Assembly: GCF_004010195.1 (NCBI RefSeq)
Contig: NC_057758.1
Location: 7,566,463 to 7,599,478 of the forward strand
Direction of reading: 5' to 3'
Length of the DNA stretch: 33,016 bases
Origin: Chiloscyllium plagiosum
Taxonomy: Eukaryota
Shown here: positions 951 to 33,016 of the stretch, piece by piece
Numbering within the stretch: the stretch's first letter is position 1
Layout of the letters: the number at the start of each line of letters is the position of its first letter
Notes under the pieces: model-generated
What the model saw: only the letters and a program-made list of their open reading frames with translations
What the model was told of the DNA's origin: nothing
The model's database searches: none
Made by a program: the position numbers and the translations under genes

Positions 951-1044
951 CCGAGTATCTTGTTGTAGTTATTATTACAGAGTCTAAACAGTTCTTAGCA
1001 AATATACCCACATTCTCCGATACTCACAACCAGATTATAAAAAT

Positions 1045-2716: not shown

Positions 2717-3247
2717 ATCACTGTTTGATAAAAAGCTGAACGATCTATTTTTACTTTAGTTTTTATAATCATGTGTATGCGAGTGTAGAAATACAGCACG
2801 ACAATGAAAATGTATACTGTTGCCATACATGGCGCCATCTGAGATGCCAATGCAACTAGGATTGTAAAAAGAATCTTTGACACAAAAGATGTAGAGAAAG
2901 AAAACGTTGAAAAGTTAAGTATTCGTTGATAGAATGTTAGAAAAACAAAGAAATTGATAATAGTTCACATCAATTCGTTCTCATCATTTAGTCTAGGATA
3001 ACAAAGACATAAGTTAAAACTTCAGCAGACTTTGATGAGTTCTTCGCTTATCTCACTCTGCTCTCTGTTGCCAACGCCACCGCTATAGATTCCATCACTA
3101 CTGCTGAAACCGTGTCTATATCTCTTCGTCTATTTCTGTTGTTCTGGGGGTGAACTCATTAAAATGAGTTCAAACCTCCCCTCTCTATCCCTCTTGTGTT
3201 CAAGGTGATACAATGCTCATGTTGCTGCAAGTCTCAATGTGTGTTTT

Positions 3248-5238: not shown

Positions 5239-6116
5239 TCACGTAATCAAGTATTTTACTGCGTTACTGATTTTCGCTCTGAATCGGGGCAATGTTGCTG
5301 AGTAAATAAATGTGTTTGTGCAACAACTTCGGAGCTGCAACATGTGACCAACTTTACTGAAGTTATACATAAAGCCCGAGTAATCATCAGTATTGATTAC
5401 TTGAATGACATAGTATAAGAAATCGACAACATATATTAACCACAGGAGGATGAAGCTCCCAGATATGGTGAAGAGCAAAATCACAGATTTCTTTCTGCTC
5501 TCCATCTCTGGATCTCTGTGATTCTCTCCTTTGCTCTCACCCTTTAGCCTCTTCCGAACTAGACTGGTCACCAAAATGTGCCTGACTGTCAGAGCATTGA
5601 GCAACAGAATCAAAGTGAATGGCAGAAAAGGGGTCAAAACAGTATCAAGCCAATCCAATACCACCCACCAAGTCTCAGTATAGTAGCTTGACTTTGTTCT
5701 ACAATAGAATGGAACATTGTTGATTATGCTCCGAGGTTCATATTGAAAATAGAAGGGGATGTTTTTCAAACAGAGCAGGGTGAAGGTTGTTGCTAGAACC
5801 ACAGTCGCAGTTTTCTCAGTACAATATTTTGTTCTCAACTTCTGACAACAAATGATCACAAATCGGTCAAAGGAGAAAGTGACGGTGAACCAGACAGAGC
5901 AGTCAGTAGCTGCACGACGCAGCACCCCAGTAACACAACACACAGGAGTGATGTCCAGGAAACAGCGTGGGTAATGATAAGTGCGAAATTTCCACAGCAT
6001 AACATCTGTGATAATTACCATCAGGTCAGTAGCTGCCATAATCACCAGGTAACGAGTAATACAGGGAGACAGACCACACTTGCCCCGTGAAAGGACAACA
6101 ATCGCCAGAAAATTTA
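5239..6116 (-). CDS. GPR139-like: Class A orphan GPCR, GPR139/GPR142-like, coding exon 2 (end of TM1 to C-terminus)
   Basis: Open frame NFLAIVVLSRGKCGLSPCITRYLVIMAATDL...SVWFTVTFSFDRFVIICC...PFLPFTLILLLNALTV...CCTNTFIY with seven-TM spacing and a DRF motif. Acceptor ttttctgtctaccacAG ends at 6117; phase 1 matches exon 1. Confidence 0.93.
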
Positions 6117-6343
6117 CTGTGGTAGACAGAAAAGATGCAATGAATTACTGATCACAATTTCCTCCTGCATGTTCCAGAATGTAACAATACGATTTTCGCC
6201 ACAAAAACAGCTGTACTGTGTGAGTGGAAGTGGTCAGGGTTGAGTGCATTTAAATTGTAAGATTTTCACACGCACCCCAGATTGTCATCCAGCACAATCA
6301 CTTCAGAGATTATGAGGTTTGGACAGAGTCTGTGCCACAGCAA

Positions 6344-6654: not shown

Positions 6655-8387
6655 AGATTCATAGAGATGTACATATGCCGACCAGATGTCCCAACACAAT
6701 CTAGTCCCACCTGCCAGCACCGGCCCATATCCCTCTAAACGCTTCCTATTCATATACCCATCCAAATGTCTCTTAAATGTTGCAATTGTACCATCCTCCA
6801 CTGCATCCTCTGGCAGCTCATTCCATACATGTACTACCCTCTGCGTGAAAACGTTGTGCCGTAGGTCTCTTTTATATCTTTCCCCTCTCACCCTAACCTA
6901 TGCCCTCTAGTTGTGGACTCCCCGACCCCAGGGAAAAGACTTTGCCTATTTATCCTATCCATGCCCCTCATAATTTTGTAAACCTCTATAAGGTCACCCC
7001 TCAGTCTCCAATGCTCCAGGGAAAACAGCCCCAGCCTGTTCAGCCTCTCACTGGAAACATCCTTGTAAATCTTTTCTGATTCTGAACCCTTTCAAGTTTC
7101 ACAACATCTTTCCGATAGGAAGGAGACCAGAATCGCACGCAATATTCCAACAGTGGCCTAACCAATGTCCTGTATAGCCGCAACATGACCTCCCAACTCC
7201 TGTACTCAATATTCTGACCAATAAAGGAAAGCATGCCAAACGCCTTCTTCACTATCCTATCTACCTACGATTCCACTTTCAAGGAGCTATGAACCTGCAC
7301 TCCAAGATCTCTTTGTTCAGCAACACTCCCAAGAACCATACCATTAAGTGTATAAGTCCTGCTAAGATTTGCTTTCCCAAAATGCAGCACCTCGCAGTTA
7401 TCTGAATTAAACTTGGCCCATGTGGTCAAGATCCTGTTGTAATCTGAGGTAACCTTCTTCGCTGTCCACTATACCTCCAATTTTGGCGTGATCTGCAAAC
7501 TTACTAACTGTACCTCTTATGCTCGCGTCCAAATCATTTATGCAAATGACAAAAAGCAGAGGACTCAGCACCGATCCTTTTGGCACTCCAATGGTCACAG
7601 GTCTCCAGTCTGATAAACAACCCTCCACCACCACCCTCTGTCTTCTACCTGTGAGCCAGTTATGTATCCAAATGGCTAGTTCTCTCTGTATTCCGTGAAA
7701 TCTAACCTTGCTAATCAGTATCCCATGGGGAACCTTGTCGAACACCTTACTGAAGTCCATATGGATCACATCTACTGCTCTGCCCTCATCAATCTTCTTT
7801 GTTACTTCTTCAAAAAACTCAATCAAGTTTGTGAGACATGTTTTCCCACGCACAAAACCATGTTGACTATCCAGAATCAGTCCTTGATTTTCCAAATACA
7901 TGTACGTCCTGTTCCTCAGGATTCCCTCCAACAACTTGCCCACCACCGAGGTCAGGCTCACTGGTCTACAGTTCCCTGGCTTGTCCTTACCACCCTTCTT
8001 AAACAGTGGCACCACGTTTGCCAAACTCCAGTCATCCGGCACCACATCTGTGACTATCGATGAGACAAATATCTCAGCAAGAGGCCCAGCAATCACTGCT
8101 CTAGCTTCCCACAGAGTTCTCCGGTACACCTGATCAGGTCCTGGGGATTTATCCACCTTTAACCGTTTCAAGACATCCAGCACTTCCTCCTCTGTAATCT
8201 GGACATTTTGCAAGATGTCAGCATCTGTTTCCCTACATTCTATATCTTCCATATCCTTTTCCACAGTAAATGCTGATGCAAAATATTCATTTAGTATCTC
8301 CCCCATTTTCTGTGGCTCCACACAAAGGCCGTCTTGTTGATCTTTGAGAGGTCCTATTCTCTCCCTAGTTACCCTTTTGCCCTTAAT
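6655..8387 (-). mobile_element. CR1 (HER1-like) LINE, RT domain to 3' end, in the GPCR intron; 5' part lost in the gap
   Basis: ORF2 motifs KSPGPD, NCRPVSLTSVVGKLLE, QHGF, MDFSKVFDKVPH, GVPKGSVLSP, KFADHAK, VRPLLEYC. Internal deletions near 7050 and 7412. Confidence 0.96.
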
Positions 8388-8741
8388 NNNNNNNNNNNNN
8401 NNNNNNNNNNNNNNNNNNNNNNNNNNNNNNNNNNNNNNNNNNNNNNNNNNNNNNNNNNNNNNNNNNNNNNNNNNNNNNNNNNNNNNNNNNNNNNNNNNNN
8501 NNNNNNNNNNNNNNNNNNNNNNNNNNNNNNNNNNNNNNNNNNNNNNNNNNNNNNNNNNNNNNNNNNNNNNNNNNNNNNNNNNNNNNNNNNNNNNNNNNNN
8601 NNNNNNNNNNNNNNNNNNNNNNNNNNNNNNNNNNNNNNNNNNNNNNNNNNNNNNNNNNNNNNNNNNNNNNNNNNNNNNNNNNNNNNNNNNNNNNNNNNNN
8701 NNNNNNNNNNNNNNNNNNNNNNNNNNNNNNNNNNNNNNNNN
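8388..8741. other. Assembly gap (354 N)
   Basis: N run, with a poly-G stretch on its right side. Confidence 1.
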
Positions 8742-8760
8742 NGGGGGGGGGGGGGGCGGG

Positions 8761-10949: not shown

Positions 10950-11617
10950 TTCTTTGAAAGTTGCCACCCAGTTTGACAGGGTTCTTAAGAAGGCATACAG
11001 TGTTTTAGCATTTATTAATAGAGGGATCGAGTTCCTGAATCATGAGGATATACTACAGCTGTACAAAACTCTAGTGCGGTTGCACTTCGAGTATTGTGTA
11101 CAGTTCTGGTCACCGCATTATAAGAAGGATGTGGAAGCTTTGGAAAGGATGCAGAGGACATTTACTAGGATGTTGTCAAGTATGGAGTGAAGGTCTAACG
11201 AGGAAAGGCTGAGGGACTTGAGGTTGTTTTTGTTAGAGAGAAGAAGGTTGGGAGGTGACTTAATAGAGACATATAAGATAATCAGAGGGTTAGATAGGGT
11301 GGACAGGGAGAGCCTTTTTTCCAAGAATGGTGACGGCGAGCACAAGGGGGCATAGCTTTAAATTGAAAGGTGATAGATATAGGACAGATGTCAGAGGTAG
11401 TTTCTTTATTCAGAGAGTAGTAAGGGTATGGAATGCTTTGCCTGCAACTGTAGTAGATTCGCCAACTTTTAAGTACATTTAAGTCATCATTGGACAAGCA
11501 TATGGACGTACATGGAATAGTATAGGTTAGATGGGCTACAGATTGGTATGTGAGGTCGGCGCAACAGTGAGGGCCGAAGGACCTGTACTGCGCTGTAATG
11601 TTCAATGTTCTATGTTC
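10950..11617 (+). mobile_element. 5'-truncated CR1 LINE with intact 3' end and (TGTTCTA)n tail
   Basis: KVATQFDRVLKKAY...LVRLHFEYCVQFWSPHYKKD. Ends gggccgaaggacctgtactgcgctgtaatgttcaatgttctatgttct. Confidence 0.95.
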
Positions 11618-14458
11618 TGAATTGGACTCTGAACTCGTGACACTGAGTTGGGAAAACCTTATTTCTTGCCAGGTATGTGCTATCTGTACCTATGTGGATC
11701 AGTAAGATTGTCTTATCCCCATCCCATTGTGAACTTATCGACAGCCCTGACCTTGGGCCCTGAAGACCAGCACAGGAAGAGAACACAGCCTCCTAGACAC
11801 ACGTTCATTGCTGCAGAAAACGCTCACATACTGCAGCTGTGACACATTACTTATTGACACTGGCCTTAATGTCCTCAAATTAAATGCTTCATTTTCTCGA
11901 ATTAAGTTTTTACGTGCATGTACACGTTTTCACGTCTTTTCTTGAACTTACACTTCTTCGCTAGATTAATATAAAGCTTACAATAGGTATTCTAGTGTAA
12001 GACCCACCCAAGTTGTAAGTTGCTGTCGTTTGACAAGATTCATACGCTCCAAGCAAAATGGATCGATCTGACTCAGTTATGGAGGAGCCATTTTCAGCTG
12101 CTTCTTTGAGTAAATAATGCCAAGTGTATTGTTCCCTAGGGCAGATCTTGTCAAACTCTCCTTTAATGTGGGAATTTCACATCTTTACCTGTCGATTTCA
12201 GTTAACTTCAATCTAATAACCCGTACAAACAAGATTTGATTTGCCCAAAAGTTCAGATTCTCTTGCCTAGTTGTCCATTTTCCTTTTAAACTTTTCTCTC
12301 TTCGGTCAAATTGCATCACCTTGAAGAATGAGAATGGTGGTGGAGGGATAATGGGAATTTCACTGCAATAATCATCCAGAAACACAAGAGAACAGCGCTA
12401 CCATAACAGCTGGTGAAATGTGAAACAGAAAAAAAAAACATGTAATAAAGAAGCAGCTGTAACAATTCTCAATTTTCCTAAAAATCCATCTATTTCCTGA
12501 AAATTTGTTCAGGAGAAAGAACGATATGTTTCACTTAGTCTGCCACTATTTGACTGCAGATCCAGTTCAATGTGTCATGGTATCTCAGTTGCCCTTCGGC
12601 TGATTATTGATAGATAATGAACGTTGGAATATGTCACTCACACCCCATGAACAAATGAATAATCTGGAATTTACAATAAGGCAAGATGGAATGGGATGTA
12701 ATTCAGGATGGAATTCACCTGTTGAAAGCATGCTGGCCTGTGACAATTCACATCATGGGCAGGACTCTCGATCCTGAGGGGAACAGATGCCTCGAAGTGT
12801 TTTCCGTCAGAAAGAGAGTGCAGAGAAACCAGGGTTTGGGGGATAGCTGGGCAAATCAGACAATTAACGTAATGAAGCCTGGACAAGCACATGTGTAACA
12901 GCAACACCAACTGAGAAGGCTGAATGGTCTCTTACTTTTGCCCACTCTACCCTATCCTCTCACACCCATACATTGCTTATCTCAACAGACTAAAAGCTAA
13001 CTTCTTTCGTGCTGAAAGGGCCAATACTGCGCGGTGATGCTCTATGTTCTATGAGCTAACTTCCTTTGTTAGCTGAGCGGTTCCATAAAAAGCATGTACT
13101 GCGCTGTGATGTTCTTAATGCTCTATGAGTCTAACTTCCTTTAATAGTTCAGCGGTTCCATGAAGGGCCTGTACTGCACTGTCATGTTCAAAGTTATATT
13201 AGTCTAACTTCCTTAATCAGCCGAGCCGTTTCATCAAGGTCCTGTACTGCGCTAAAATCTTCCATGTTGTATGAGTGTAACTTCCTTTATGAGCCGAGCG
13301 GTTCCTCAAAGGGCCTGCACTGCACTGTCATATTCGATGTTCGTTGAGTCGAACCTCGTTTATTAGCTGAGCGGTTCCAAAAAGGGCCTGTACTGCACTT
13401 AATGTTCTATGAGTGCAACTTTCTCTATTAGCCAAGCTGTATGTAAAGGGCCTGTGCTGTGCAGTCATATTCTATGTTGTATTTGCCCAACTTTCTTTAT
13501 CAGTCAAGGGGTTCTCTAAAGGGACTTTACTACACTGTAATGCTATTTGTTCGATGAGTCTAACTTCCTTTATGAGCCGAGCGGTTCCATAAAGGTCCTG
13601 TAATGTGCTGTTCTATGAGTGGAAATTTCATTAACAGCTGAGCGGTTGCATGAAGGGCCAGCACTGCACTGTCATAGTTTAGTTTGTATTAGTTTAATGA
13701 TCTTTACGAGCCTAGCAGTTCCATAAAAGGCATGTAATGTGCTGCAATGTTCTATGTTAGACAGTCTAACATCCGTTATTAGCTGAGCTGTTCCATAAGT
13801 GCCTGCATAGCGCTGTAATGCTCTGTGTTCTATGAGTCTAACGTACATTATTAGCCGAACTGTTCTGTAAAGGGCATGTACTGCGTTGAAATGTTCTATA
13901 TTCTCTGAGCTCCATCTCCTTTATTAGCTGAGCGGTCCAAAAGAGGGCCTGCACTGCACTGTCATAGTCTAGGTTGAATTAGTCTAATGTCCTTTATGGG
14001 CATAGCATTTCCGTAAAGGGCCTGTAATGCGCTGTAATGTTCTATGTTGTATTAGTCTAACTTCCTTAATGAGCCGAGCGGTTCCATAAAGGGCCTGTAC
14101 TGCGCTGTAATGCTCTATGTTCTGTGAGTCTAACATTCTTTATTATCCAAGCATTCCATAAAACTCTATACTGAGCGGTAATGTTTAATGTTCTATGAGT
14201 CTAACTTGCTTTATTTGCCAAGCGGTTCCATAAGTGGCCTGTAGCGCGCTGTGATGTTCGACGTTGTATTAGTCTAGTATCCGTTATGAGCCGAGCGGTT
14301 CCATAAAGAGCCTGTACTGCTCTGTCATATTCTATGTTGTATCAGTCCAACTTCCTTAATCAGCCAAGCGATCCCGTAAAGGACCTGTCCTGCTCGAGAA
14401 TGCTCTATGTTCTCTGAGTCTAACTTGCTTTATTAGCTGCGTGGTTCCGGAAAGGACC

Positions 14459-14735
14459 GGTGGCACAGTGGTTAGCACTGCTGCCTCACAGCGTAAGAGA
14501 CCTGGGTTCCATTCCCGACTCAGGCGACTGAATGTGTGGAGTTTGCACATTCTCCCTGTGTCTCCGTGGGTTTCCTCCGGGTGCTCCGGTTTCCACCCAC
14601 AATCACAAAGATGTGCACGTCAGGTGAATTGGCCATGTTAAAGAGGTAAATGTACGGGAATGGGTGGGTTGCGGGTCGGTGTGGACTTGTTGGGCCGAAG
14701 GGCCTGTTTCCACACTGTAAGTAATCTAATCTAAT
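14459..14735 (+). mobile_element. tRNA-derived V-SINE, HE1-like, inserted in the array
   Basis: Pol III A box TGGCACAGTGG at 14461-14471 and B box GGTTCCATTCC at 14505-14515. V-domain core tgtgtggagtttgcacattctccc...gggtttcctccgggtgctccggtttcc. CR1-like tail gggccgaagggcctgtttcc followed by (TAATC)n. Confidence 0.93.
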
Positions 14736-16273
14736 GCACTGTAATGTTTATGTTGTATTCGTCTAGCTTCCTCTTTCATTCGAGCGGTTCCATAAAGGGA
14801 CTGTACTGAGCTGTCATGTTCTGTGTGCTATGAGTCTAACTTCCTTTTTTAACTGAGCGATTCCATAAAAGGCGTGTACTGCGCTGTAATGCTCTATTTC
14901 CCATGAATATAACGGTCATAATAGGCCGAGCGGTTCCCTAAAGGGCCTGTAATGCACTCTAATGTTCTGTGTGTCTAACTTCCTGTATTATCCGAGCGGT
15001 TCCATAAAGCACCTGAACTGTGCTGTAATGTTCTCTGTTCTACGTTCTATGAGCCTAACTTCCGTTATTAGAAGAGTGGTTCCATAAAGGGCCTGTACTG
15101 CACTGTCAAAGCCGAGGTTGTATTCGTCTAATGAACTTTTTGTGCCGAGTGGTTCCGTAACGGGCTGTACTACGCTGTAATGTGCAACTTCATATTCGTC
15201 GAAATGTTTTTATTCGTCGAGTTGTGCCAGAACGGGCTTGTACTGCGCTGTAATCTTCTATCTACTATGAGTCTAACATCCTTTATTCGCCAAACGGTTC
15301 CATAAGCCTAATGTAGTGCGCCATGATGTTCTGTGTTCTGTGAGTCTAACTTCCTTTATTTGTTGAGCAATTCCATAAAGGGCCTGTACATCGCTGTAAT
15401 GTTCTATGTTTTTTTGAGTCAAACTTCGTTTATTAGCCGAGCGGTCCCATAAAGGTCATGCATGGAGCTGTGATGCGCTATGTCCCATGAGTTAAACATC
15501 ATTTATTAGCCTTGTAATTCCATGAAGTGATGTATCATTATATGTTTTATTGGTCTAACGTCCTTTATTAGACGAGCGGTTCCAGGCAGGGCATGTTCTC
15601 TACGTTCTGTGTGTCCAACTTCCTTTATTACCCAAGCGGTTCCATAAACAGCCTGTACTGCGCTGATATGTTCTGTGATGTATTAGACTAACTTCCTTTA
15701 TCTGCTGAGTGATTCCATAAAAGGGCCTATACTGTTCTGTAATGTTTTATGTTATATTAATTTGACTTCCCTTATTTGCCAAGCGGCTCCACTAAGTGCC
15801 TGTACTATGTTTTCCTGTTCGAAGTTGTATCAGGCTAACTTCCTTAATCAGGTGAGCGGATCCATAAAGGATCCATAAAATACTTCGCTGTAATGTTCGA
15901 TGTTCTACGAGTCTAACTTCATTTATCAGCCCAGCAGTTCCGTAAAGTCGTGTAGTGCACTGTAATGTTCTCTGTTCTGGGAGTGTAACTTTCACTATTA
16001 GCCAAGCATTCCATGGAGGGTCTATACCGCGCTGTAATGTTCTATGTTGTATTAGCCTAACTTCCAGAATCAGCCAAGCGGTTCCATTTACGTCCAGTAC
16101 TGCGCTGTGATGTTCGATGTTGTATTAGTCTAACATCCGTTACGAGCCGAGCAGTTCCACAAAGGTCATGTACTGCGCTGTAATGTTCAATGTTCTATGA
16201 GTCTAACTTTCTTTATTCGCCGAGCGGTTCCAAAAAGGGCCTGTAATACGCTGTAATGCTGTATGTTATATTA

Positions 16274-16421
16274 GCTGAAAATGTGTTGCTGGAACCGCGC
16301 AGCAGGTCAGGCACCTTCAAGGCACAGGAGAATCGACGTTTCGGGCATAAGCCCTTCTTCAGGAACCCGAAACGTCAATTCTCCTGTTCCCTGGATGCTG
16401 CCTGACCTACTGCGCCGTTTC
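16274..16421. mobile_element. Fold-back Penelope-like terminal fragment inserted in the array
   Basis: Inverted arms ~16290-16345 and 16366-16423. The minus strand reads TTC-CTGAAGA-AGGGCTTATGCCC-GAAACGTC-GATT (16365-16331). Confidence 0.75.
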
Positions 16422-19400
16422 AGTCTAACTTCCTTAATCAACCGGGTGGATGCATAAAGGGCTTGCACTCCGTTGTAATGTTCCATGTTCTATGAGTCTA
16501 GCTTCATTTATCATCCGAGCGGTTCTGTTAAGAGGAACTGTAATGTTCTATGTTCTGTGAGTGCAACTTTCACTATTAGCCAAGCAGCTCCATGGAGAGT
16601 CTGTATGCGCTGTTTTGTTCCATGTTGTATTAGTCTAATGTTCGTTATTAGCTGTGCGGTTCCATACAGGACCTGTACTGATCTCTCATATTCTATGTTG
16701 TATTAGTCCACCTTCCTTAATCAGCCATGAAGTACCTGTCCTGCGCTATAATGATCTATGTTTTAGTAGTTTAATTTCCTTTCTAAGCTGACCAGTTCCA
16801 TAAAGAGTCTGTAATGCGCTGTAATGTTCGATGTTCTATGAGTCTAACTTGCTTTAATAGCTGTGCGGTTCCGGAAAGGACCAGTAACGCACTGTAATGT
16901 TCATGTTGAATTCGACTAGCTTCCTATATCATTCGAGCGATTCCATAAAGGGTCTGTACTGCGCTGAAATGTACTACTTTGTATTCGTATAACTTCTTTT
17001 ATTGGTCGAGTGGTTCGATAAAGGGTCTTTACTGCATTGTAATAATCTATCTTTTATGAGTCTAACATCCATTATTAACCAATTGGTTCCATAAGAAGAA
17101 TGCAGTGCGCCATGATGTTCTGCGTTCTTTGAGTGTAACTTTCTTTATTTGTTTAGCGATTCCATAAAGGGCCTGTACAGTGCTGTAACGTTCTATGTTC
17201 TATGAGTCTAACTTCCTTTATTAGCCGAGCGGTTCCATAAAGTTCATATACGGAGATGTGATGCGCTATGTTCCATGAGTCAAACTTCGTTTATGAGCCG
17301 TGCGATTCCATGAAGTGATGTACCATTATATGTTGTATTAGTCTAACATCCTTTATTAGACGAGCGGTTCCATGCAGGGCATGTAACCTACGTTCTGTGT
17401 GTCTAACTTCCTTTATTACTCAAGCGGTTCCATAAACAGCCTGTGCTGCGCTGATATGTTCTGTAATGTATTAGACTAACTTCCTTTATCTGCTGAGTGG
17501 TTCCACAAAGGGCCTATACTGTGCTGTAATGTTTTATGTTGTATTAATCTGACTTCCGTTATTAGCGAGCGGTTCCAATAAGCGCCTGTACTATGTTTTC
17601 CTGTTCGAAGTTGTATCGGTCGAACTTCCTTAATCAGGGGAGCGGATCAATAAAGGATCTATAAAGTACTTCGCTGTAATGTTCTATGTTCTGTGAGTCT
17701 AACTTCATTTATCTGCCCAGCGGTTCCATAACGTCGCGTTGTGCACTGTAATGTTCTCTGTTCTGTGAGTGTAACATTCACTATTAGCCAAGCAGTTCCA
17801 CGGAGGGTCTGTACTGCGCTGTAATGTTCTATGTTGTATTCGTATAACTTCCAGAATCAGCCAAGTAGTTCCATATACGTCCAGTACTGCACGTGATGTT
17901 CGATGTTGTATTAGTCTAACATCCGTTATGAGCCGAGCAGTTCCATAAAGGGCCTCTACTGCACTGTCATGTTCTATGTTCTATGAGTCTAACTTCTTTT
18001 ATTCGACGAACGGTTCTAGAAATGACCCGTAGTGCACTGTCATATTCAAAGTTGCATTAGTCTAACTTCCTTTATTAGCCGAGCGGTTCTAAAAATCTCC
18101 TGTACTGCGCTGTAATGTTCTGTGTGTTATGTGACTAACTTCCTTAATCAGTCGAGCGGTTCCATAAAGGGTCTGTACTACGTGGTAATGTTCCATGTTC
18201 GATGAGTCTAACTTCCTTAATCAGCCGAGCGGTTCCAGAAAGGGGCTGTACTACGCTGTAATGTTATGTGATGTACCAGTCTAACTTCCTTTATCAGCCA
18301 AGGGGTTCCTTAAACGGCTTGTAATGCGCTGTAGTTATCGATGTTGGATAAGTCTAACTTCCGTTAACAGCCGAGTGGTTCCATGAAAGGCCTGTACTAC
18401 ACTGTGATGTTCTTGGCTCTAGGAGTCTAACTTCCTTTATTAGCCGAGAGGTGCCCTAAAGGGCCTGTACTGCGCTGTAATGGTTTATGCTGTAGTAGTC
18501 TAACTTCCTTTTTTCGCCAAAGGGTTCTGTAAATGGAATGTACCGAGCCGCAATTATCTCTGTTGTATTAACCTCACTTCTTTTACTGTCTGAGCGGTGT
18601 CCCACTGAGCCTGTACTGCGCTGCAATGTTCTCTGCTGTCTAACTTCCTTTATTAGCCAAAGGGGTCCGTAAACGACCTGTACTGTGCTGTAATTATCTA
18701 TGTTTTATTAGTCTCACTTCCTTTATCAGCCAAGTGGTTCCATAAAAGAGGTTTAATGCGCTGTAATGTGTTATGCTCTATGAGTGTAGCTTCCATGATT
18801 ATTAGCTGAGTTGTTTCAGAAAAGGGCCTGTACTACGTTGTAATATTCCATATTCACTGAGCTCAACTTCCTTTTTTAGCCGAGCGGTTCAAAACAGGGC
18901 ATGTACTGCGCTGTCATAGTCTTGGTTGAATTAGTCTAATGCCCTTTATGGGCGTAAAATTTCCATAAAGGGCCTGTAATGCACTGTAATGTTCTATGTT
19001 GTATTCATCTAACTTCCTTTATCAGCCGAGGCGTTCCATAAGCGGCCTGCAGTGCACTATATTGTTCCACGTTGTACTAGTTTAATGTTTGTTATTAGCC
19101 AAGTGGTTCCATAACGCGCCTGTACTGCATTGTAATGTTCTATGTTCTATGTGTCTAACTTCCTGTCTTAGAAGAAACGTTCCATAAAGGGCTTATATTG
19201 CGCTGTATTGTTCTATGTTGTATTAGGCTAAATTCCTTTATCAGATGAATAATTCAATAAATTAATTGCACGGCGCTGTGATCTTCTATATTCTATGAGT
19301 CTAACTTTCTTTATTAGCCGAGCGGTTCCATCAAAGACCCGTACAGTGTTGTAATGTTTTACGTTCTATGAGTCTAATTTCCTTTATGAGACAAGCGGTT

Positions 19401-21375
19401 CCATAAAGCTGTGTGCTGCGCTGTCATATTCAATCTTGTATTACTCTAACGTCCGTTATTAGTCGAGGGGTTCTATTAAGGGCCTATACTGTGCGTTCAT
19501 GTTCGAAGTTGTTTCAGACTAACTTCCTTACTCAACCGAGTGGATCTATAAAGGCATTGTACTACGCTGTAGTGTTCCATATTCTATGAGTCTAGCTTCA
19601 TTTATCAGCCAAGCGGTTCTGTAAAGTCGTGTAGTGCACTATAATGTTCTAAGATCGGTGAGTGTAACTTTCAGTATTAACCGAGTAGTTCCATGGTAGG
19701 CCTGTACTGCGCTGTAATGTTCTATATTGTATTAGTCTAACTTCCTGAATCAGCCAAGCGGTTCCATAAAAGGCCAGTACTGCGCTGTGATGTTCGATAT
19801 TGTATGAGTTAACATCCGTTATTAGCCGAGTGGTTCCATAAAGGGCCTATATGGCACTGTAATGTTCTATGTTCTATGAGTCTAACTTCATTTATTAGAC
19901 TAATGGTTCTAGAAATGACCCGTAGTGCGCTATCATATTCAAAGTTGTATTAGTCTAACTTCCTTTATTCGGCGAGCAGTTCCATAAAGCTCCTGTACTG
20001 CGCTGTTATGTTCTGTGTTCTGTGAGAGTAACTTCCTTAATCAGTCGAGCAGTTCCATAAAGGGTCTGTACTGCGTGGTCATGTTCCATGTTCGATGAGT
20101 CAAACATCCTTTATCAGCCGAGCCGTTCCAGAAAGGGCCTGTACTACACTGTGATGTTGTGTGTTGTACCAGTCTAACTTCCTTTCTTAGCCGAGGGATT
20201 CATAAACGGCTTGTAACGCGCTTTAATTATCTATGTTGGATCAGTCTAATTCCCCTTAACAGCCGAGTGGTTCCGCAAAGGGCCTGTACTACATTGTGAT
20301 GTTCTTTGGTCTAGAAGTCTAACTTCCTTTATTAGCCAATCGGTGCTCTAAAGGGCCAGTGCTATGCTGTAATGTTTTAAGCTGTACTAGTGTAACTTCC
20401 TTTATTCGCCAAAGGGTTCCATAAACGGCCTGCACTGTGATCTAATTACCTATGTTGTCTTAGACTCACTTCCTTTATCAGCCGAGAGGTTCTACACGGG
20501 AAGTGTAGTGCGCAGTAATGTTCTTTGTTCTTTAAGTGTAACTTCCATTACCAGCCGAGTGGTTCCATAAAGGGGCAGTACTGCGTTATGATGTTCTATG
20601 TTGAATTATTCTAACATTCTTTGTTAGCTGAGCATTTCGATAAAGGGCGTGTACTGCGTTGTAATGCTCTACGTTCTATGAGTCTAACTTTCTTTATTAG
20701 CCAAGCGTTTCTTTAAAGGACCTGCACTGTGCTCTTCCACGTTTGATGTGTCTAACTTCCTTGGTTAGCCGAATGGTTCAAGAAAGGGCCTGTAATGCGC
20801 TGTCATATTTTATGTTGTATTAGTCTAACGTCGTCTATTGGCTGAGCAGTTCCATAAAGGCCCAGTACTGCGCTTAATGTTCCATGAGTCTAAGATCCTT
20901 TATTAGACTATGTTGTATTAGTCAAATTTACTTTATTAGTCGAGCAGTTTCATAAGGGACCCGTACTGTTCTGTAATGTTCTATGTTTTATGAGTCTAAC
21001 TTCAATTATTAGACGAGCGGTTCTAGAAAGCGCCCGTACTGCGCTGTCATGTTTTAAGATGTATTAGTCTAACTTCTTTATTAGCTGAGCGGTACCAGAA
21101 AGGGACTTTACTGTGCGGTAATGTTCCAAGTTCTATGAACCTAACTTTGGTAATCAGCCGAGCGGTTCCATAAAGACTCTGTGCTGTTCTATCATATTTT
21201 ATGTCGTATTAGTCTAACTTCCTTTATCAGCTGAGAGGATCTGTAATGGATCTGTACTGCGCTGTAATTATCCATGTTGCATGAGTCTAACTTCCTTTAT
21301 CAGCTGAGCGGTTCCATCAAATGTCTGTACTGCACTGTAATGTTCTATGTTGTATCAGTCTAATATCCGTTATTA

Positions 21376-21596
21376 TCTTTGAGGAGAAAGTGAGGTCTGC
21401 AGATGCTGGAGATCAGAGCTGAAAATGTCTGGCTGGAAAAGCGCAGCAGTTCAGGCAGCATCCAGGGAACAGGAGAATCGACGTTTCGGGCATAAGCCCT
21501 TCTTCAGGAAGAAGGGCTTATGCCCGAAACGTCTATTCTCCTGTTCCCTGGATGCTGCCTGACCTGCTGCGATTTTCCAGCAACACATTTTTAGCC
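21376..21596. mobile_element. Fold-back Penelope-like terminal fragment (88-bp inverted arms) inserted in the array
   Basis: Arms 21418-21505 and 21508-21595. Flanked by an imperfect duplication, aatatccgttatta (21362-21375) and aacatccattatta (21597-21610). Confidence 0.8.
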
Positions 21597-22031
21597 AACA
21601 TCCATTATTAGCCTTGCAATTTCCATAAAGAGCCTGTACCGCGCTGTAATATTCTGTGTTCTATGTGTCTAAGTTCCTTTATCAGCCAAGAGGATCTATA
21701 ATGAGTCTATACTGCGCTGTAATTATCTATGTTGTATTAATCTAACTTCCTGTATTAGCTGGGCCCTTTCAAAAAGGACTTGTACTGCACTGTCATGTTC
21801 TATGTTGAATTAGTCTAACGTCCATTATTAGCCGAGCATTTTCATAAAGGGCCTGTACCACACTGTAATGTGCTATGTTCAATGAGTCTAACTTCCTTTA
21901 TTGGACGACCGTTTCCATAAAGGGTCTGTACTGCGCTGTTAAGTTATATGTTCTATGTCTCTAACTTCCTTTATTAATTGAGCCGTTCTATAAAGGCATG
22001 TACTGCGCTGTCATATTCTATGTTGTATTAG

Positions 22032-22276
22032 GTAAAAACAATGACTGCAGATGCTGGAAACCAGAGTCTAGATTAGAGTGGTGCTGGAAAAGCACAGCAG
22101 TTCAGGCAGCATCCGAGGAGCAGTAAAATCGAAGTTTCGGGCAAAAGTCTCCCCACCCCCAATCTCCTCTCACTTATCTCTCCACCCTTCAGGCTCTCTG
22201 CCTGTATTCCTGATGAAGGGCTTTTGCTCAAAACGTCGATTTTACTGCTCCTCGGATGCTGCCTGAACTGCTGTAC
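22032..22276. mobile_element. Fold-back Penelope-like terminal fragment with 15-bp TSD inserted in the array
   Basis: TSD tctatgttgtattag at 22017-22031 and 22277-22291. Inverted arms ~22091-22147 and 22221-22277. ATTC-CTGATGA-AGGGCTTTTGCTC-AAAACGTC at 22206-22237. Confidence 0.8.
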
Positions 22277-23134
22277 TCTATGTTGTATTAGTCTAACTTG
22301 TTTTATCAGCTGAGCGGTCCCATAAACGGACTGTATTGCCCTGTAATGTAATATGTCCTATGAGTCTAACATTCTTTATTGGCCAAGTGGGTCTATAAAG
22401 GGCCTGCACTGTAATGGTCTATATTGCATTAGTCTAACTTCCTTTATTAGACGAGTGGTTCCATAAAATGCCTGTACTGCGCTGTCATATTCTCTGTTGT
22501 ATCAGTCTAATGGCCTTACAATTGTATAAAAGACCTGTACCTCGCTATAATGTTCTATGATCTATGTGTCTAACTTGTTTGATTAGCTAGCGTTTCCATT
22601 AAGGGCCTGTAATGCGCTGTAATGTTCTATGTTGTATTAGTCTAACGTCCGTTATTAGCCGAGCAGTTCCATAATGGGCGAGTACTGCTCTGTAATGTTC
22701 TATGTTTTATGAGTCTAACTTCCTTTTTGAGACGAGCGGTTCTAGAAAGCGCCAGTACTGTGCTGTCATATTTGAAGTTGTATGAGTCGAACTACCTTTA
22801 TTAGCCAATTGGTTCTATAAATGGCCTGTACTGCGCAGTAATATCCCATGTTCTATGAATCTAACTTCCTTAAACAGACGAGCGGTTCCATAAAGACTCT
22901 GTGCTGTGCTATCATATTCTATGTTGTATTAGTCTAACTTCCTTTATCAGCCAAGAGCATCTATAATGGGCCGGTACTGCGTTGTAATTATCTATGTTGT
23001 ATTAGTCTAACTTCCTTTAGCAGCCGAGCGGTTCCATCAAGGGCCCGTACCGCACTGTAATGTTCTGTGTTGCATCGTCTAACATCCTTTATTAGCCTTG
23101 CATTTTTATAAAGGGCCTGCACCGCGCTGTAAAA

Positions 23135-23803
23135 TTAGAACATAGAACATTGAAAATTACAGCACAGAACAGGCCCTTTGGCCCACGATGTTGTGCCGAG
23201 ATTTGATCCGAAAATAAAATATAGTAACAACCTACGTACCCTCAACTCACTGCTATCCATGTGCATGTCCAGCAGTCGCTTAAATGTCCCCAATGACTCT
23301 GCTTCCACCACCGCTGCATTCACATCTCTCTGTGTAAAAAACCTACACCTGACGTCTCCTTTATACCTTACTCTTAATATCCTCAAACTATGACTTCTTG
23401 TACCAGTCAATCCTGCCCTGGGGAAAAGTCTCTGGATATTGACTCTATCGATTCCTCTCATTATTTTGTACACTTTGATCAGGTCTCCTCTCCTCCTTCT
23501 TCTCTCCAGAGAGAAAGGTCCGAGTTTATTCAACCTTTCTTCATAAGGCAAGCCCTACAGTCCAGGCAGTAGCCTGGTACACCTTCTTTGCACACTCTCC
23601 AAAGCCTCTGTATCTTTTCCATAGTAGAGCGACCCGAACTGGACACAACGTTCCAAGTGTGGCCTCACCAGGGACTTGTAGAGCTGCAGCAAAACCTCAC
23701 GGCTCTTAAACTCTATCCCCCTGTTAATGAAAGCAAAAACACCATATGCTTTCTTAATAACCCTATTCCCTTTGGTGGCAATTTTGAGGGATCTATGTTC
23801 TTG
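23135..23803 (-). mobile_element. CR1 LINE 3' portion with (TAGAACA)n tail, running into the gap
   Basis: YEERLNKLGPFSLERRRRRGDLIKVYKIMRGIDRV...RFFTQR, with the tail at 23135-23150. Confidence 0.95.
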
Positions 23804-24303
23804 NNNNNNNNNNNNNNNNNNNNNNNNNNNNNNNNNNNNNNNNNNNNNNNNNNNNNNNNNNNNNNNNNNNNNNNNNNNNNNNNNNNNNNNNNNNNNNNNN
23901 NNNNNNNNNNNNNNNNNNNNNNNNNNNNNNNNNNNNNNNNNNNNNNNNNNNNNNNNNNNNNNNNNNNNNNNNNNNNNNNNNNNNNNNNNNNNNNNNNNNN
24001 NNNNNNNNNNNNNNNNNNNNNNNNNNNNNNNNNNNNNNNNNNNNNNNNNNNNNNNNNNNNNNNNNNNNNNNNNNNNNNNNNNNNNNNNNNNNNNNNNNNN
24101 NNNNNNNNNNNNNNNNNNNNNNNNNNNNNNNNNNNNNNNNNNNNNNNNNNNNNNNNNNNNNNNNNNNNNNNNNNNNNNNNNNNNNNNNNNNNNNNNNNNN
24201 NNNNNNNNNNNNNNNNNNNNNNNNNNNNNNNNNNNNNNNNNNNNNNNNNNNNNNNNNNNNNNNNNNNNNNNNNNNNNNNNNNNNNNNNNNNNNNNNNNNN
24301 NNN
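23804..24303. other. Assembly gap (500 N)
   Basis: N run of round length, probably a placeholder size. Confidence 1.
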
Positions 24304-25417
24304 TGATTCTCCACTGGCTGTCCCATGGTCTCCTGTTGATTGTCTGTGTTCAGTCCTTCTAGGGCTCAGTTAACTTGTTGGGCAAGGATCCTGAGTTTAT
24401 ATTTCAAATTAGCCATGTCAAGGACATTAACCGGTGAAACTACCGCCCCGTGTGCTGTGGCTAGATCATTAAGGAGTCCGCTTCTCTTTCATCTGTTAAC
24501 TGCTGATCTGGGTTTTCCCTCATATTTTCCTGTCCTTCACCCCGTTAACCCGTGGGTCAGGTGGGAATGTAATCATTTTAATGGGGAAGGACCCCACTCC
24601 GGTAACTGTATCCCTGACGTTATGATTATGATTGGTATTAGTCTATGGTGAATGTTATTGAACAGGGTTTTCCCTGTGAATTTAATGACTAGTCGATTGC
24701 GAGGGCTCAATGTATGTGGGATAAGTTGGGAGAGGAGCCTTCACTCCTGGTCTCAGCCCGTTTTTAATTGTGTTCTCGAAGAATTCTCCCTGTTGGGACT
24801 TCCTGAGGCATCGCTGTCTGAACTCTAACCCCCTGTCCGAACTCTGACTCCTGTACAGGATGTGTGCTAGATATCCCACTGCCATGTAGTCGTTCTCAGG
24901 GAAACCCCACCAATCGCCCGTGATCCCTGCGCACCTGTAACACAATGTGGGAATCCCATTGTGTACACCAAGAGCTGATGGCTTCACCTCAATCCCACTG
25001 ATTCCACAGAATGGATCCAGAGGGTCCCATCTCCACACACCGCGGTTCCTGGTGGGTCATACCACAGTGATCCTGGGTACATTGTTCTCCCTTGGGCATG
25101 TGCTACACCTTCCCATGCAGTCATTATAAAGCTCATACAGACATGCAATAAACACTCCAGAAGGTCACATCACTTCCTTGGAGTAACTGCTCCAGTGCAC
25201 TTCACAAACAGAGAACAAGAGTCATTTCTGTAAATATCTTGGTCTAATATCTGACACCATGTCCTCCATGACGTTAGAAATTTGTCAAAGTATCGAATTG
25301 TCACCCATTCCTGGTCCCCCTGTGATTGAATAAATGGAGCCCGTATGCAGGATGTGATGTGGAGGGGTGGGCTCTCCCCCAGGAAGCACAATTGAATGGC
25401 TACTCCAAGACTATCAT
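24304..25417 (-). pseudogene. env: Decayed env-like (class I fusion glycoprotein) gene of an ERV-like element; C-terminal part lost in the gap
   Basis: A single frame from 24692 reads LVIKFTGKTLFNNIHHRLIPIII...QLPEW...VNR*KR-SGLLNDLATAHGAVVSPVNVLDMANLKYKLRILAQQVN*ALEG. This is a furin-type site (24494-24483), a fusion-peptide-like stretch and a heptad repeat. Upstream are Cys/Trp-rich pieces and a signal-like MIV/LGVAIQLCFLG (ATG 25417, needs one frameshift). Confidence 0.7.
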
Positions 25418-25559
25418 GCTGTCCCTGATTGGCTACCAAGTAGCAGCTTCCGCTATCATGTGGTTGGTCAACCTCAGTGTAAAGATCACAGGCTGTTTCC
25501 ACTCCAGCTGCTGCTGACAGGATGGTACCATTGGTGTTAGTCCCCTTTTCCAGCCTTCC

Positions 25560-27000
25560 CGTTGCCAGGTGGGAATTTTGGCTGGCCGCAGTCCTGAATG
25601 AAATGGCTGGTTCAGCCACACTTAGAGCACAGTTTGGGCTTGGGCTTCATTTGGGAGAGTTCCCTTCTCCTGGGACAGGGACTTGGATGGAGGGGGAGTC
25701 CACCTGGGCTCTGTGCTGTATTCCTGCCCCTTCCTTTGCTGCTCCAGTTTTAGGAAAGGGGTGCGGAGCTGTAATAATTCCAGATCGTGCTTATGTGGCC
25801 TGATTTTCAGGATGACTGCTCGGCCCTTAACTCCTTTCCCATACAGTGATTAATTTGTGGAGGACCCAAGCGTCATTATAGGAGGCGTCTGAGGACCCGA
25901 ATTCCGGGTGTCCCTCCCTCTTTCTGAGATATGGGAGACAAGAGATAGAAACCGGTTTCTCATTGCTAAGAGAGTGTGTGTCATATCCCCGAAAACGCAA
26001 ACAAACTGGACCCAAAGTCTCTGGGTGAAGCTGATGGGGTGTTCCCCTTGTTGTGGTTCTGCATTTATGTAGCACGTCCATAGGGCCTGCCTTATCCTAC
26101 GCTACAACAGTCAGGACCACTGTCTTCATTTCATCAAGGGACCCCCGCCGAACCGCTGGCCCTCAGGGAGGGCTGAATGGCCTGCTGGACAACAACCAAT
26201 GATGATTAATTTGGTTTGTTCCTCAGTATCCAGTCCGGAATGACAGATTTCGGAAGTTCCCATCCAAAAAGTATCTGGGTCTGAGGGGAATGAAAAGGAG
26301 TCCTCTTTCTGGTGCTGCCCACGGCTGGGTGACTGCCATGGGTGTTGGGTGTGTCATGTGACCATCAGCTGTTTGACATGCGTAACTACAGGATTCATGG
26401 GATCTGGCTTGGGCTGTGGATCAGGGGTGGAGGCGAAAGGTGCGATTACCTGGGAGAAAAGCAGAGTGGGGGTACCCATCTGTGGGCGAGTGTGGATGTC
26501 TCCATGTGGGGCCTCTCGCTATGTCACTGGGGAGGGATGATCCCCAAATGCCCACATTATCCCATTCTTGGCAGAGACCTGGATCCCGACGGATTGTATT
26601 TGTCCCTGGCCCTTCCTACTAAGGCCTGCTGTACATTGCTCAGTGTTGCAGGCAGACAGGTCACATGCAGCTGGTTGGAACTCCCTACACTCCCCTTCCA
26701 GCTTGTCACTGTATTCTGAGGCTGCTTCACAGTCCCCAGTTGCCTTCCTTTCACGGGATTGGGCTCTTTCCAATTGGAACTGGAGCTGTCCCGTGTTGGG
26801 GAGGTTTTCCTGCAACGTTCTGTCCTGTTCCTTGTGGAAGAGCTCACGCTCTGACACAGTCTGTTTTTTTTTTCCCTGGAGTGAGCGAATCTCAGCTGCT
26901 ATCTTCTGATCGGGGTCCTCCAGGCTATAGATTGCTGCAAGCAGGGTATGATGTTCTTCAGGAAGAATCGATAAAGAGACTTTTTTTGTAAACGGGTAGA
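25560..27000 (-). pseudogene. gag: Decayed gag of an ERV-like/LTR element
   Basis: N-terminal coiled-coil-like frame (27000-26519), PMNPVVT (~26400), capsid-like GSLDEMKTVVL...PMDVLHKC, MHR-like QQGEHPISFTQRLW (~26055-26010), and zinc knuckle CSKCG*TSHFIQDC (CX2CX4HX4C, 25629-25588). Confidence 0.85.
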
Positions 27001-27049
27001 TGCTATAGGACTTTTGGTGTGATGGTGTGTAACATTTACAATCTGCAGC

Positions 27050-27660
27050 AGAGGGCGATCATACAGTGACTGTGTGTGTGCGCGTCTGTGTGATATTCAC
27101 AGAGTCTTCCAGTGGGATATTGCTGTTGGTGAAACTGTCCTTGTAGAAACATCTTCAGCACAATTTGTGTCAAGCAGCTTCTTCCTAGCATTGACAGATG
27201 AACTATCGATGAAAAAGCAGAACAACCTTGGAAAATCCCCTGACGTGATGCTGGGAATGAAGTACATTTGTTTGATCATCTTACATTCAATTCTAACACA
27301 TACTTCTGTTCAGTTCTCTAAACAAAAACTTCATTTGTATAATAATCTTGTGTGAAATTGTAAATACAGTGTGCTCAATTGTATGACGCATTTAACATCA
27401 TTTGTATACACCTCAAGGTCATTAAGATTGCTGACTTTACCTGTGTGACCTCGTGTGTAGCAATATTGTATTCATTTGTAGAATAAACCTGTGTTCATTT
27501 GTTCAAACATCTTGTGTTAAGATTTGCGACAAATTGCGCTAATTTCTACAAATACCTTGTGTTAATTTATGCAAAGGTCTTGTGTTGTAGCTGTTCTGTG
27601 TTTGAAACTATAGCTTTGTGTCTGTGATCATTCCACGTCTGGGTCCAGTGGGGATGTGAG
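27050..27660 (+). mobile_element. Possible LTR-like segment
   Basis: AATAAA at 27482 followed by GT-rich ttgtgtt repeats, as in an LTR R/U5 region. No clear termini or TSD, and it is oriented opposite to gag. Confidence 0.3.
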
Positions 27661-30128: not shown

Positions 30129-30202
30129 TGCAATGACCAGGAATCGAACCTGGGTCAACTGCTTGGAAAGCAGCTATGCTAAAAACACTATACTAACATT
30201 GC
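30129..30202 (-). pseudogene. tRNA-Gly(TCC) pseudogene
   Basis: GCAATGTTAGTATAGTGTTTTTAGCATAGCTGCTTTCCAAGCAGTTGACCCAGGTTCGATTCCTGGTCATTGCA is colinear with vertebrate tRNA-Gly-TCC. The anticodon arm GCTGC-TTTCCAA-GCAGT and the T arm are intact, but the D-loop GG is replaced by a T5 run. Confidence 0.88.
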
Positions 30203-32000: not shown

Positions 32001-33016
32001 CATAGAACATAGAACATAGAACAATACAGCACAGAACAGGCCCTTCGGCCCACGATGTTGTGCCGAACATTTGTCCTAGCTTAAGCACCGATCCATGTAC
32101 ATATCCAATTGCCGCTTAAAGGTCACCAAAGATTCTGACTCTACCACTCCCACAAGCAGCGCATTCCATGCCCCCACCATTCTCTGGGTAAAGAACCCAC
32201 ACCTGACATCCCCCCCCATACCTTCCACCCTTCACCTTAAGTTTATGTCCCCTTGTAACACTCTGTTGTACCCGAAGAAAAAGTTTCTGACTGTCTACTC
32301 TATCTATTCCTCTGATCATCTTATAAACCTCTATCAAGTCACCCCTCATCGTTCGCCGTTCCAACGAGAAAAGGCCTAGCACTCTCAACCTATCCTCGTA
32401 CGACCTATTCTCCATTCCAGGCAACATCCTGGTAAATCTTCTCTGCACCCTCTCCAAAGCTTCCACATCTTTCCTAAAATGAGGCGACCAGAAATGCACA
32501 CAGTACTCCAAATGTGGCCCAACCAAAGTCCTGTACAGTTGCAACATCACTTCACGACTCTTGAATTCAATCCCTCTGCTAATGAACGCTAATACACCAT
32601 AGGCCTTCTTACAAGCTCTATCCACCTGAGTGGCAACTTTCAAAGATATATGAACATAGACCCAAAGATCCCTCTGCTCCTCCACCTTACTAAAAACCCT
32701 ACTGTTAACCCTGTTCCGCATTCTTATTTGTCCTTCCAAAATGGACAACCCCACACTTGGCAGGGTTGAACCCCATCTGCCACTCCTCAGCCCAGCTCCG
32801 CATCATATCCAAGTCCCTTTGCAGCCAACAGCAGCCCTCCTCACTATCCACAACTCCACAAATCTTCATATCATCTAAAAATTTACTGACCCACCCTCTT
32901 CCAAGTCATTAATAAAAATTACAAACAGCAGAGGACCCAGAACAGATCCCTGCGGAGCTCCACTTGTAACTGGACTCCAGGCTGAATATTTACCATCTAC
33001 CACCACACTCTGACTT
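32001..33016 (-). mobile_element. Relatively young CR1 LINE (RT to 3' end) with (CATAGAA)n tail; continues off the right edge
   Basis: 212-aa ORF with QRDLWVYVH...LVGPHLEYCVHFWSPH...[24 protein letters not shown] near 32960, and the tail at 32001-32023. Confidence 0.96.

What the first reader, a model, noticed from the sequence alone, without database searches (positions are those of the whole stretch)
12995..23133. 10-kb tandem array built from the CR1 LINE 3' terminus (the RT-recognition end)
Seen: the last ~36 nt of the 73-bp unit (AAGGGCCTGTACTGCGCTGTAATGTTCTATGTTCTA) closely match the extreme 3' ends of three CR1 copies in this window (11577-11617 +, 23135-23178 -, 32001-32045 -). The other ~36 nt match no LINE sequence that I can see. 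Established: CR1/L2-clade LINE proteins recognise their RNA through a 3' stem-loop plus short terminal repeats, which SINEs such as HE1 borrow. Inference: this is a satellite of ~125 head-to-tail LINE-end modules. If transcribed, it could act as a decoy or substrate for CR1 ORF2, a mobilisable mini-SINE-like unit, or a source of small RNAs against CR1. I do not recognise it as a described satellite.
Basis: partly seen in the sequence, partly recalled or inferred. Interest (0 to 1): 0.75.

Follow-up and report, generated by a model that had tools for sequence, protein, structure and literature searches.

The report
Old satellite built from LINE tail
A 73-base satellite DNA, probably from a shark, carries half of a jumping gene's tail signal in each unit, but it is old, decaying and barely seen in RNA, so it looks like an ordinary transposon-derived satellite and not a decoy against the jumping gene.

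Summary
The array is real: about 127-130 head-to-tail 73-bp units at 12995-23136, on average 82% like their consensus and 70% like each other, with kilobase block duplications and four later insertions. Thirty-six bases of the unit match three CR1-type LINE 3' ends at 32-34 of 36. But the match starts in the loop: the unit holds only the 3' arm of the stem-loop plus the tail repeats, not the whole recognition end. A weak substitute stem is not significant and shows no covariation. Both halves decay equally (0.834 vs 0.838), and 0 of 130 units keep both arm and tail intact. Raw DNA reads give about 970-fold depth on the non-LINE half, 25-75 times what this array can supply, so the family is much larger; a second organism holds it too. 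In one poly(A) RNA run, 1 of 159 laid reads fell on a non-LINE half. Verdict: a new, seemingly undescribed member of a known kind, a retroposon-derived satellite. The scan's notes held no earlier finding of it.

The parts
12995..13014 (+). Partial leading unit: degenerate, shortened non-LINE half; left edge of the array. No extended LINE sequence upstream of it.
   Evidence: sequence; starts the first full row at 13015; one search finds no LINE 5' arm here
13015..23136 (+). Tandem array of 127-130 units of 73 bp, mean 82% to consensus, two interspersed unit types differing at positions 35, 39 and 57
14016..14051 (+). LINE-derived half of a near-consensus unit (unit 15, positions 2-37): end of the loop, 3' stem arm and two 7-nt tail repeats of a CR1-type LINE
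   Evidence: loose ends begin at 14015/14016 and 14088/14089, where LINE reads continue into their own 5' arm
14052..14087 (+). Non-LINE half of unit 15 (positions 38-73); origin unknown; DNA read depth about 970-1140 in run X7
17222..17232 (+). Example of a Pol III A-box-like motif in the non-LINE half (consensus motif recalled); present in 13 of 130 units; no good B box seen
   Evidence: column conservation
14459..14729 (+). tRNA-headed SINE (HE1-like; name recalled) inserted into unit 21; the paralogous unit 49 is empty; junction shows 3-nt microhomology and no duplication
16268..16416 (.). Palindromic insertion with a hammerhead-core-like motif at 16338-16362 (-)
21377..21592 (.). Palindromic insertion (edges approximate; alignment core 21384-21541) with the same motif at 21483-21507 (-)
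22032..22277 (.). Palindromic insertion (right edge approximate) with the motif at 22210-22234 (+); about 14 bases of the unit are duplicated around it
15036..16230 (+). Block duplication, copy 1 (partner 16825-18016, 85.9% over 1198 bp; lag 23 units)
20908..21375 (+). Block duplication, copy 1 (partner 22627-23094, 84.6% over 469 bp; lag 19 units)
11577..11617 (+). 3' end of a CR1-type LINE copy with its complete stem-loop (5' arm from about 11558); 34/36 to the unit
23135..23803 (-). CR1-type LINE copy that abuts the array tail to tail and runs into an N gap (23804-24303); 32/36 to the unit
32001..32045 (-). 3' end of a third CR1-type LINE copy; 33/36 to the unit

Best explanation
An old, moderately repeated satellite family whose founding unit joined the last 36 bases of a CR1-type LINE to 36-37 bases of unrelated DNA, most simply a very short 5'-truncated insertion plus its flank. 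Shown: the chimeric unit, the break inside the loop, block duplications, even decay, later insertions, a family far larger than this array, presence in a second organism. Inferred: a first duplication by slippage or unequal exchange made the unit; unequal crossing-over amplified it, first as monomers (two unit types), later in blocks of 19-28 units; copies spread to other arrays; homogenisation then stopped and the array has decayed neutrally. It works as passive tandem DNA and has no sequence-specific role towards the LINE.
For: Uniform 73-bp period with units about 0.20 substitutions per site from their type consensus. Block duplications at lags 19, 23, 26, 28 and 63 units. Equal conservation of both halves (0.834 vs 0.838, p 0.79), also base by base, and a two-fold CpG transition excess (0.20-0.22 vs 0.10). 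Only 3 of 130 units keep the 3' arm intact, 3 the tail repeats, 0 both. No covariation in either candidate stem: 17 of 61 double changes keep pairing, against a null mean of 21.8; 26 of 50 against 20.6, p 0.11. DNA depth 972 on the non-LINE half from 1934 Mb read, against at most 41 copy-equivalents from this array under a permissive simulation; the array alone would need an 82-Mb genome. RNA run X6: 0 depth on unit 15's non-LINE half against about 10 expected from the LINE-tail ratio. Precedent: CR1-derived chicken satellites (table of PMC6947457) and SINE-derived reptile satellites, some with 14-44 nt of unknown origin in the unit (PMC10702118).
Against: The founder event is not observed: no genome was held, so neither the empty site nor the source of the non-LINE half was found. 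The non-LINE half can pair with the LINE arm in a similar register (11.9 expected pairs in the isolated 45-nt frame; p 0.07 against shuffles, 0.04 against genomic 21-mers) and holds an A-box-like motif, both hints that it may not be random flank. One RNA read did lie on the non-LINE half of unit 17. Only one RNA run, poly(A), tissue unknown, about 2% of it read. The extra depth could come from one collapsed large array instead of many loci.
Confidence: 0.72

Rival explanations
1. The whole 73-bp unit is the 3' end (or a deleted form) of an older, unrecognised SINE or LINE that used the same tail, so the 'non-LINE' half is that element's own 5' arm or tRNA-derived head; the satellite is still passive today.
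For: The consensus can fold into a stem of similar register using the non-LINE half as 5' arm. An A-box-like motif lies in that half; chance expectation is 1.3 matches in the whole 33-kb window. Reptile satellites often come from SINE parts (PMC10702118).
Against: The substitute stem is weak (-9.2 vs -16 to -17.5 kcal/mol; p 0.36 and 0.24 on energy) and wobble-rich, with no covariation. No tRNA or Rfam family in the units. The loose ends listed show only the LINE's own 5' arm and no cluster leaving the non-LINE half, but only 24 rows were shown (down to 536 reads for X7) and 583 were not. No extended parental sequence at the left edge.
Confidence: 0.15
2. The array is transcribed in germ line and acts on the LINE, as a decoy for ORF2, as a mini-SINE substrate or as a source of piRNA-type small RNAs.
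For: The family is large and shared by two organisms. The conserved part of the ORF2 tail-binding region binds stems generically (PMC4176376). Tandem arrays can be read through in oocytes from a nearby CR1 promoter (chicken LL2R, bioRxiv 10.64898/2026.03.19.712899). Small RNAs need no stem-loop.
Against: 5' arm and native loop are missing, and the loop carries the specificity. No selection on the LINE half. Median unit matches only 29 of 36 LINE bases, and about 14,000-42,000 real LINE tails already exist as a better source. 1 of 159 RNA reads on a non-LINE half.
Confidence: 0.06
3. The array was built by repeated targeted retro-insertion of LINE tails at one regenerated site, as earlier scan notes describe for Tx1 LINEs in this genome.
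For: Scan notes e1-8020005 and e1-7788809 report stacked LINE tails in this genome (unchecked leads).
Against: Truncation points of independent insertions vary, whereas here the period is a fixed 73 bp with one break point; private variants are copied in blocks; none of the four insertions found inside the array is a same-tail LINE.
Confidence: 0.02
4. A single-locus amplification that is much longer in the real genome and collapsed or cut in this assembly; no spread to other loci.
For: Read depth cannot tell one big array from many; an N gap lies 670 bases to the right.
Against: Units only 70% alike assemble without collapse as a rule (inference). The array does not resume after the gap. Contig pieces include segments 10-19% different from this array.
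Confidence: 0.05

Closest known systems
SINE-derived satellites (sSat1-3) of squamate reptiles, PMC10702118 (parts 1-4 of 5 read; supplements not seen)
   Same: Units of about 70-290 nt cut from a non-LTR retroposon, some with 14-44 nt of unknown origin; arrays of tens to hundreds of units; alternating subvariants; several loci.
   Different: Source here is the extreme 3' tail of a CR1-type LINE, not a SINE portion; half of the unit is foreign; units are more decayed (70% pairwise, against 82-94% in cobra loci); no extended parental terminal unit; chromosomal position unknown.
CR1-derived chicken satellites: HinfI repeat and Cen2, 3, 4, 7, 11 repeats (as listed in Table 1 of PMC6947457; passages only; primary papers not read)
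   Same: Tandem repeat that incorporates CR1 sequence.
   Different: Other lineage; from recall their units are far longer; I did not see that they use only the terminal 36 bases.
Stringent LINE/SINE tail pairs: HE1 SINE with HER1 LINE in sharks and rays (table row in PMC3747384, passages); ZfL2-1/ZfL2-2 tail recognition (PMC4176376, part 1 of 5 and passages)
   Same: The unit carries part of the same kind of 3' tail (stem arm plus short repeats).
   Different: SINEs keep the whole stem-loop and a working Pol III head; the unit has half the stem, no intact loop, no good B box, and is tandem.
Chicken LL2R tandem repeat (bioRxiv 10.64898/2026.03.19.712899; passages)
   Same: Tandem array next to CR1; shows that such arrays can be transcribed in oocytes.
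   Different: In the passages read, CR1 supplies the promoter, not the unit; no full-length LINE 5' end was seen upstream of this array.

Membership tests
Retroposon-derived satellite DNA | Long head-to-tail array of one unit | tested here: met
   127-130 units of 73 bp
Retroposon-derived satellite DNA | Unit homologous to part of a dispersed retroposon | tested here: met
   32-34 of 36 to three LINE ends; about 13,400-fold DNA depth of such tails
Retroposon-derived satellite DNA | Amplification at DNA level (subvariants, block duplications) | tested here: met
   two linked unit types, block duplications of 0.5-1.2 kb
Retroposon-derived satellite DNA | Family larger than one array | tested here: met
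   depth 25-75 times this array's share for genomes of 2-6 Gb; number of loci not determined
Retroposon-derived satellite DNA | Heterochromatic or subtelomeric location | not testable with these tools
   no genome held
SINE / mini-SINE using a stringent CR1 or L2 tail | Complete 3' stem-loop with cognate loop | tested here: not met
   5' arm and most of the loop absent; substitute stem not significant
SINE / mini-SINE using a stringent CR1 or L2 tail | Terminal short repeats | tested here: met
   present in the type-1 consensus, but intact in only 3 of 130 units
SINE / mini-SINE using a stringent CR1 or L2 tail | Internal Pol III promoter (A and B box) | tested here: inconclusive
   A-box-like motif in 13 of 130 units (motif recalled); B box judged absent by eye; no tRNA call in the array
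SINE / mini-SINE using a stringent CR1 or L2 tail | Dispersed single copies with retroposition junctions | tested here: inconclusive
   no such loose-end cluster among the 24 rows shown, 583 rows hidden
SINE / mini-SINE using a stringent CR1 or L2 tail | Transcribed | tested here: inconclusive
   1 of 159 RNA reads on a non-LINE half in one poly(A) run; short Pol III or small RNAs would be missed
CR1 clade (the parent LINE) | RT phylogeny or library match placing the three parent copies in CR1 | not tested
   Name rests on recalled ORF2 C-terminal and tail features; Pfam gave RVT_1 for another LINE copy at 7410-8387 and no family for two of the parent copies' frames; no Dfam or Repbase on hand

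The most novel reading that the evidence does not exclude
The unit is a chimeric minimal retroposon module (Pol III A-box-like piece, substitute 5' stem arm, LINE 3' arm and tail) that was amplified into a genome-wide satellite and is read in the germ line into RNA that binds CR1 ORF2 or feeds small-RNA silencing of CR1: a host satellite made of a transposon's recognition signal and turned against it.
Probability: 0.06. Interest if true: 0.72.

Novelty: new member of a known kind. Interest (0 to 1): 0.27.

Why it matters
As it stands it is a tidy example of a satellite born from 36 bases of a LINE tail, and a candidate lineage and cytogenetic marker in sharks, for which my searches turned up little satellite description. 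Its block structure and nested insertions record the order of array growth and decay. It would matter much more only if germ-line RNA from it engaged the LINE machinery, which the evidence here does not favour.

Tried and rejected
Genome-wide search: no genome held. Exact 22-nt non-LINE motif: 0 hits in metagenome contigs, viral contigs and paper full texts; these collections are not expected to hold shark DNA, so the blanks say little. No RNA holder listed (no evidence either way). Rfam at E<=5: 11 weak hairpin matches, none on ordinary units, all below gathering score. ARAGORN: one tRNA-like call, outside the array. Scan notes: none on this sequence or on a satellite in this genome. A regular dimer or higher-order period: rejected; mean identity by lag is flat at about 0.70 except lags 23 and 26, and unit types do not strictly alternate. 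Selection on the inverted-repeat hairpin inside the unit: not supported (p 0.11-0.13). Folding z-scores do not single out the LINE ends either (z 0.06 and -1.19; units 0.95, 1.02, -0.86), so the stem-loop assignment rests on the same fold in three LINE copies and the SINE tail and on the literature, not on energy. The first consensus lost one base through an alignment setting and was replaced. Contig depths were not used as copy numbers. Literature searches for a described shark satellite of this kind (passages of PMC11406177, whose printed Y-linked unit is a different 46-mer) found none; Dfam, Repbase, subscription journals and supplementary satellite lists were not seen, so it may already be catalogued there.
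Full report
Observation. TRF reports a period-73 array from 13015 to 23132 with 63-73% matches. A wrap-around alignment gives a 73-base consensus and 130 unit rows from 13015 to 23136, 116 of them with at least 68 aligned bases. One or two rows lie in insertions, so I count 127-130 units. Mean identity to consensus is 0.82 and between units 0.70; the corrected distance to the type consensus is about 0.20. Four DNA runs of one sample hold 66-74% of 499 sampled words of 16460-21370. The setting looks like a shark: HE1-like SINE and CR1-like LINEs (names recalled, no repeat library on hand), and earlier scan notes call this genome cartilaginous fish (not checked by me).

The LINE match. Unit positions 2-37 match the three LINE ends at 34, 32 and 33 of 36, with local scores 56-62 against at most 30 in 30 shuffles; the other half matches nothing else in the window. 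All three LINE ends, and the tail of the SINE in the array, fold into a long stem-loop. The unit's match begins in the loop, so it keeps the 3' arm and the two 7-nt tail repeats and lacks the 5' arm. Public reads agree: thousands of LINE-tail reads leave the unit exactly at 14016 and 14088/14089 and go on into the LINE's 5' arm. In zebrafish L2 LINEs, deleting or swapping the stem-loop abolishes retrotransposition, and the loop carries the specificity (PMC4176376; part 1 of 5 and passages). Carrying this over to a shark CR1 is an inference. Against my reading, the consensus can form a substitute stem of similar register with the non-LINE half (-9.2 kcal/mol; 11.9 expected pairs in the isolated frame, 3.6 in wider context). 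Its energy is not unusual (p 0.36 against 2000 shuffles, 0.24 against 2000 genomic 21-mers); its pair count is borderline (p 0.07 and 0.04); it shows no covariation across 129 adjacent unit pairs. Among 99 real junctions examined, the mean is -7.7 kcal/mol and 8 reach -12 or lower. Folding z-scores are unremarkable for units and LINE ends alike.

Mode of growth and decay. Two unit types are tightly linked at positions 35 and 39 (50 type 1, 53 type 2, 27 unassigned; Fisher p 6e-22) and are mixed without strict alternation. Only type 1 keeps the LINE's perfect tail. Blocks of units were duplicated later: 15036-16230 against 16825-18016 (85.9%) and 20908-21375 against 22627-23094 (84.6%) by blastn, and runs at lags 26, 28 and 63 by best-partner analysis. 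A SINE sits in unit 21 while its paralogue, unit 49, is empty, and three palindromic elements have also inserted. With four bimodal columns left out, conservation is 0.834 in the LINE half and 0.838 in the other (p 0.79), and CpG transitions are twice as common as others. Eight of 130 units match the LINE half at 33 of 36 or better; none keeps both arm and tail intact. This is what neutral decay looks like.

Copy number and distribution. I laid four runs on four units (13942-14231) at 80% likeness. In raw DNA run X7 (1934 Mb read) the non-LINE half of unit 15 has depth about 970-1140 and the LINE-tail half of unit 16 about 13,400. A permissive simulation shows that this array can put at most 41 copy-equivalents there. 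For genomes of 2-6 Gb (size not known) the depth means 1,000-3,000 near-consensus monomers, 25-75 times this array's share; the array alone would need an 82-Mb genome. So the family is not confined to this 10-kb stretch, though depth cannot say how many loci there are. Organism B (run X5) holds the family too: 4,464 contigs were laid, most probably LINE tails, but with depth over the non-LINE half, with joints that go back as tandem copies do, and with one 203-base piece across units 14-16 showing 12 other letters and no gap. That fits an orthologous or closely paralogous array older than the split of the two organisms.

Expression. In RNA run X6 (single-cell poly(A), tissue not given, about 2% read) 159 reads were laid. 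Depth is 144 on the LINE half of unit 16, with the LINE's 5' arm as loose end; these are LINE transcripts or read-through. Depth on unit 15's non-LINE half is 0, where the DNA ratio predicts about 10 (Poisson 3e-5). One read lay on the non-LINE half of unit 17. The satellite is thus below the per-copy level of LINE tails in this library. Germ-line, non-poly(A) and small RNAs were not tested.

Origin of the other half. Not found: no Rfam family, no tRNA, no exact 22-mer hit in metagenome or viral contigs or in paper texts. It holds an A-box-like motif (recalled consensus): 14 matches in the window, 13 in units and 1 in the SINE head, against 1.3 expected. The 13 are copies of one event, the motif was noticed after the fact, its columns are not better conserved, and I saw no good B box. 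I keep a SINE or tRNA origin as a rival at 0.15.

Mechanism. Most likely (0.72) a very short 5'-truncated LINE insertion, cut in the loop, and its flank were duplicated once, amplified by unequal exchange, spread and then left to decay. The chimeric unit, block duplication, decay and family size are shown; the founding event and the spread to several loci are inferred.

Comparison. Satellites from retroposon parts are known: CR1-derived HinfI and centromeric repeats of chicken (table in PMC6947457, passages) and SINE-derived satellites of reptiles, several with extra DNA of unknown origin and alternating subvariants (PMC10702118, parts 1-4 of 5). This array meets the tested features of that kind and fails the stem-loop test for a mini-SINE. 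I found no description of this unit (most seen as search listings only), but Dfam, Repbase and supplementary satellite lists were not seen and may hold it. The scan's notes had nothing on it.

Verdict. Observation confirmed, interpretation partly supported; new member of a known kind; interest 0.27. The boldest reading left open, a germ-line RNA acting on CR1, has about 0.06 probability.

Noticed in passing
window 16268-16416, ~21377-21592, ~22032-22277: Three palindromic insertions in the array each carry a hammerhead-core-like motif with a short stem (4 matches in the window, 1.55 expected, so not significant by count alone). From recall such minimal hammerheads mark Penelope-like element termini; Rfam gave only hairpin miRNA-like hits below gathering score, and the review passages seen (PMC6155905) did not settle it.
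   Followed up: partly
window 23110-23179: The last partial unit and the inverted LINE tail that abuts it form a tail-to-tail hairpin (-24.5 kcal/mol). Whether the LINE inserted into the array and the rest was lost, or lies beyond the N gap, is unknown.
   Followed up: partly
window 5239-6144 (-): Single-exon rhodopsin-family GPCR frame (7tm_1, E 8.5e-21); resembles, from recall, the GPR139-like receptors expanded in sharks; start not checked.
   Followed up: partly
window 7407-8387 (-) and 6660-7410: Another LINE copy with an open RT frame (RVT_1, E 7.4e-22), interrupted by an N gap at 8388-8742; its tail differs from the array's.
   Followed up: partly
window ~24300-27600: GC-richer region with broken frames that may be a decayed LTR retroelement; no Pfam family for the 26522-27058 frame.
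   Followed up: no
window 30129-30202 (-): Degenerate tRNA-Gly-like gene called by ARAGORN, probably a pseudogene or SINE head.
   Followed up: no
window 14052-14087 (- strand of each unit): The consensus non-LINE half reads as a canonical polyadenylation hexamer on the minus strand and contains a 7-bp inverted repeat that overlaps the LINE break point; neither is better conserved than other columns.
   Followed up: partly
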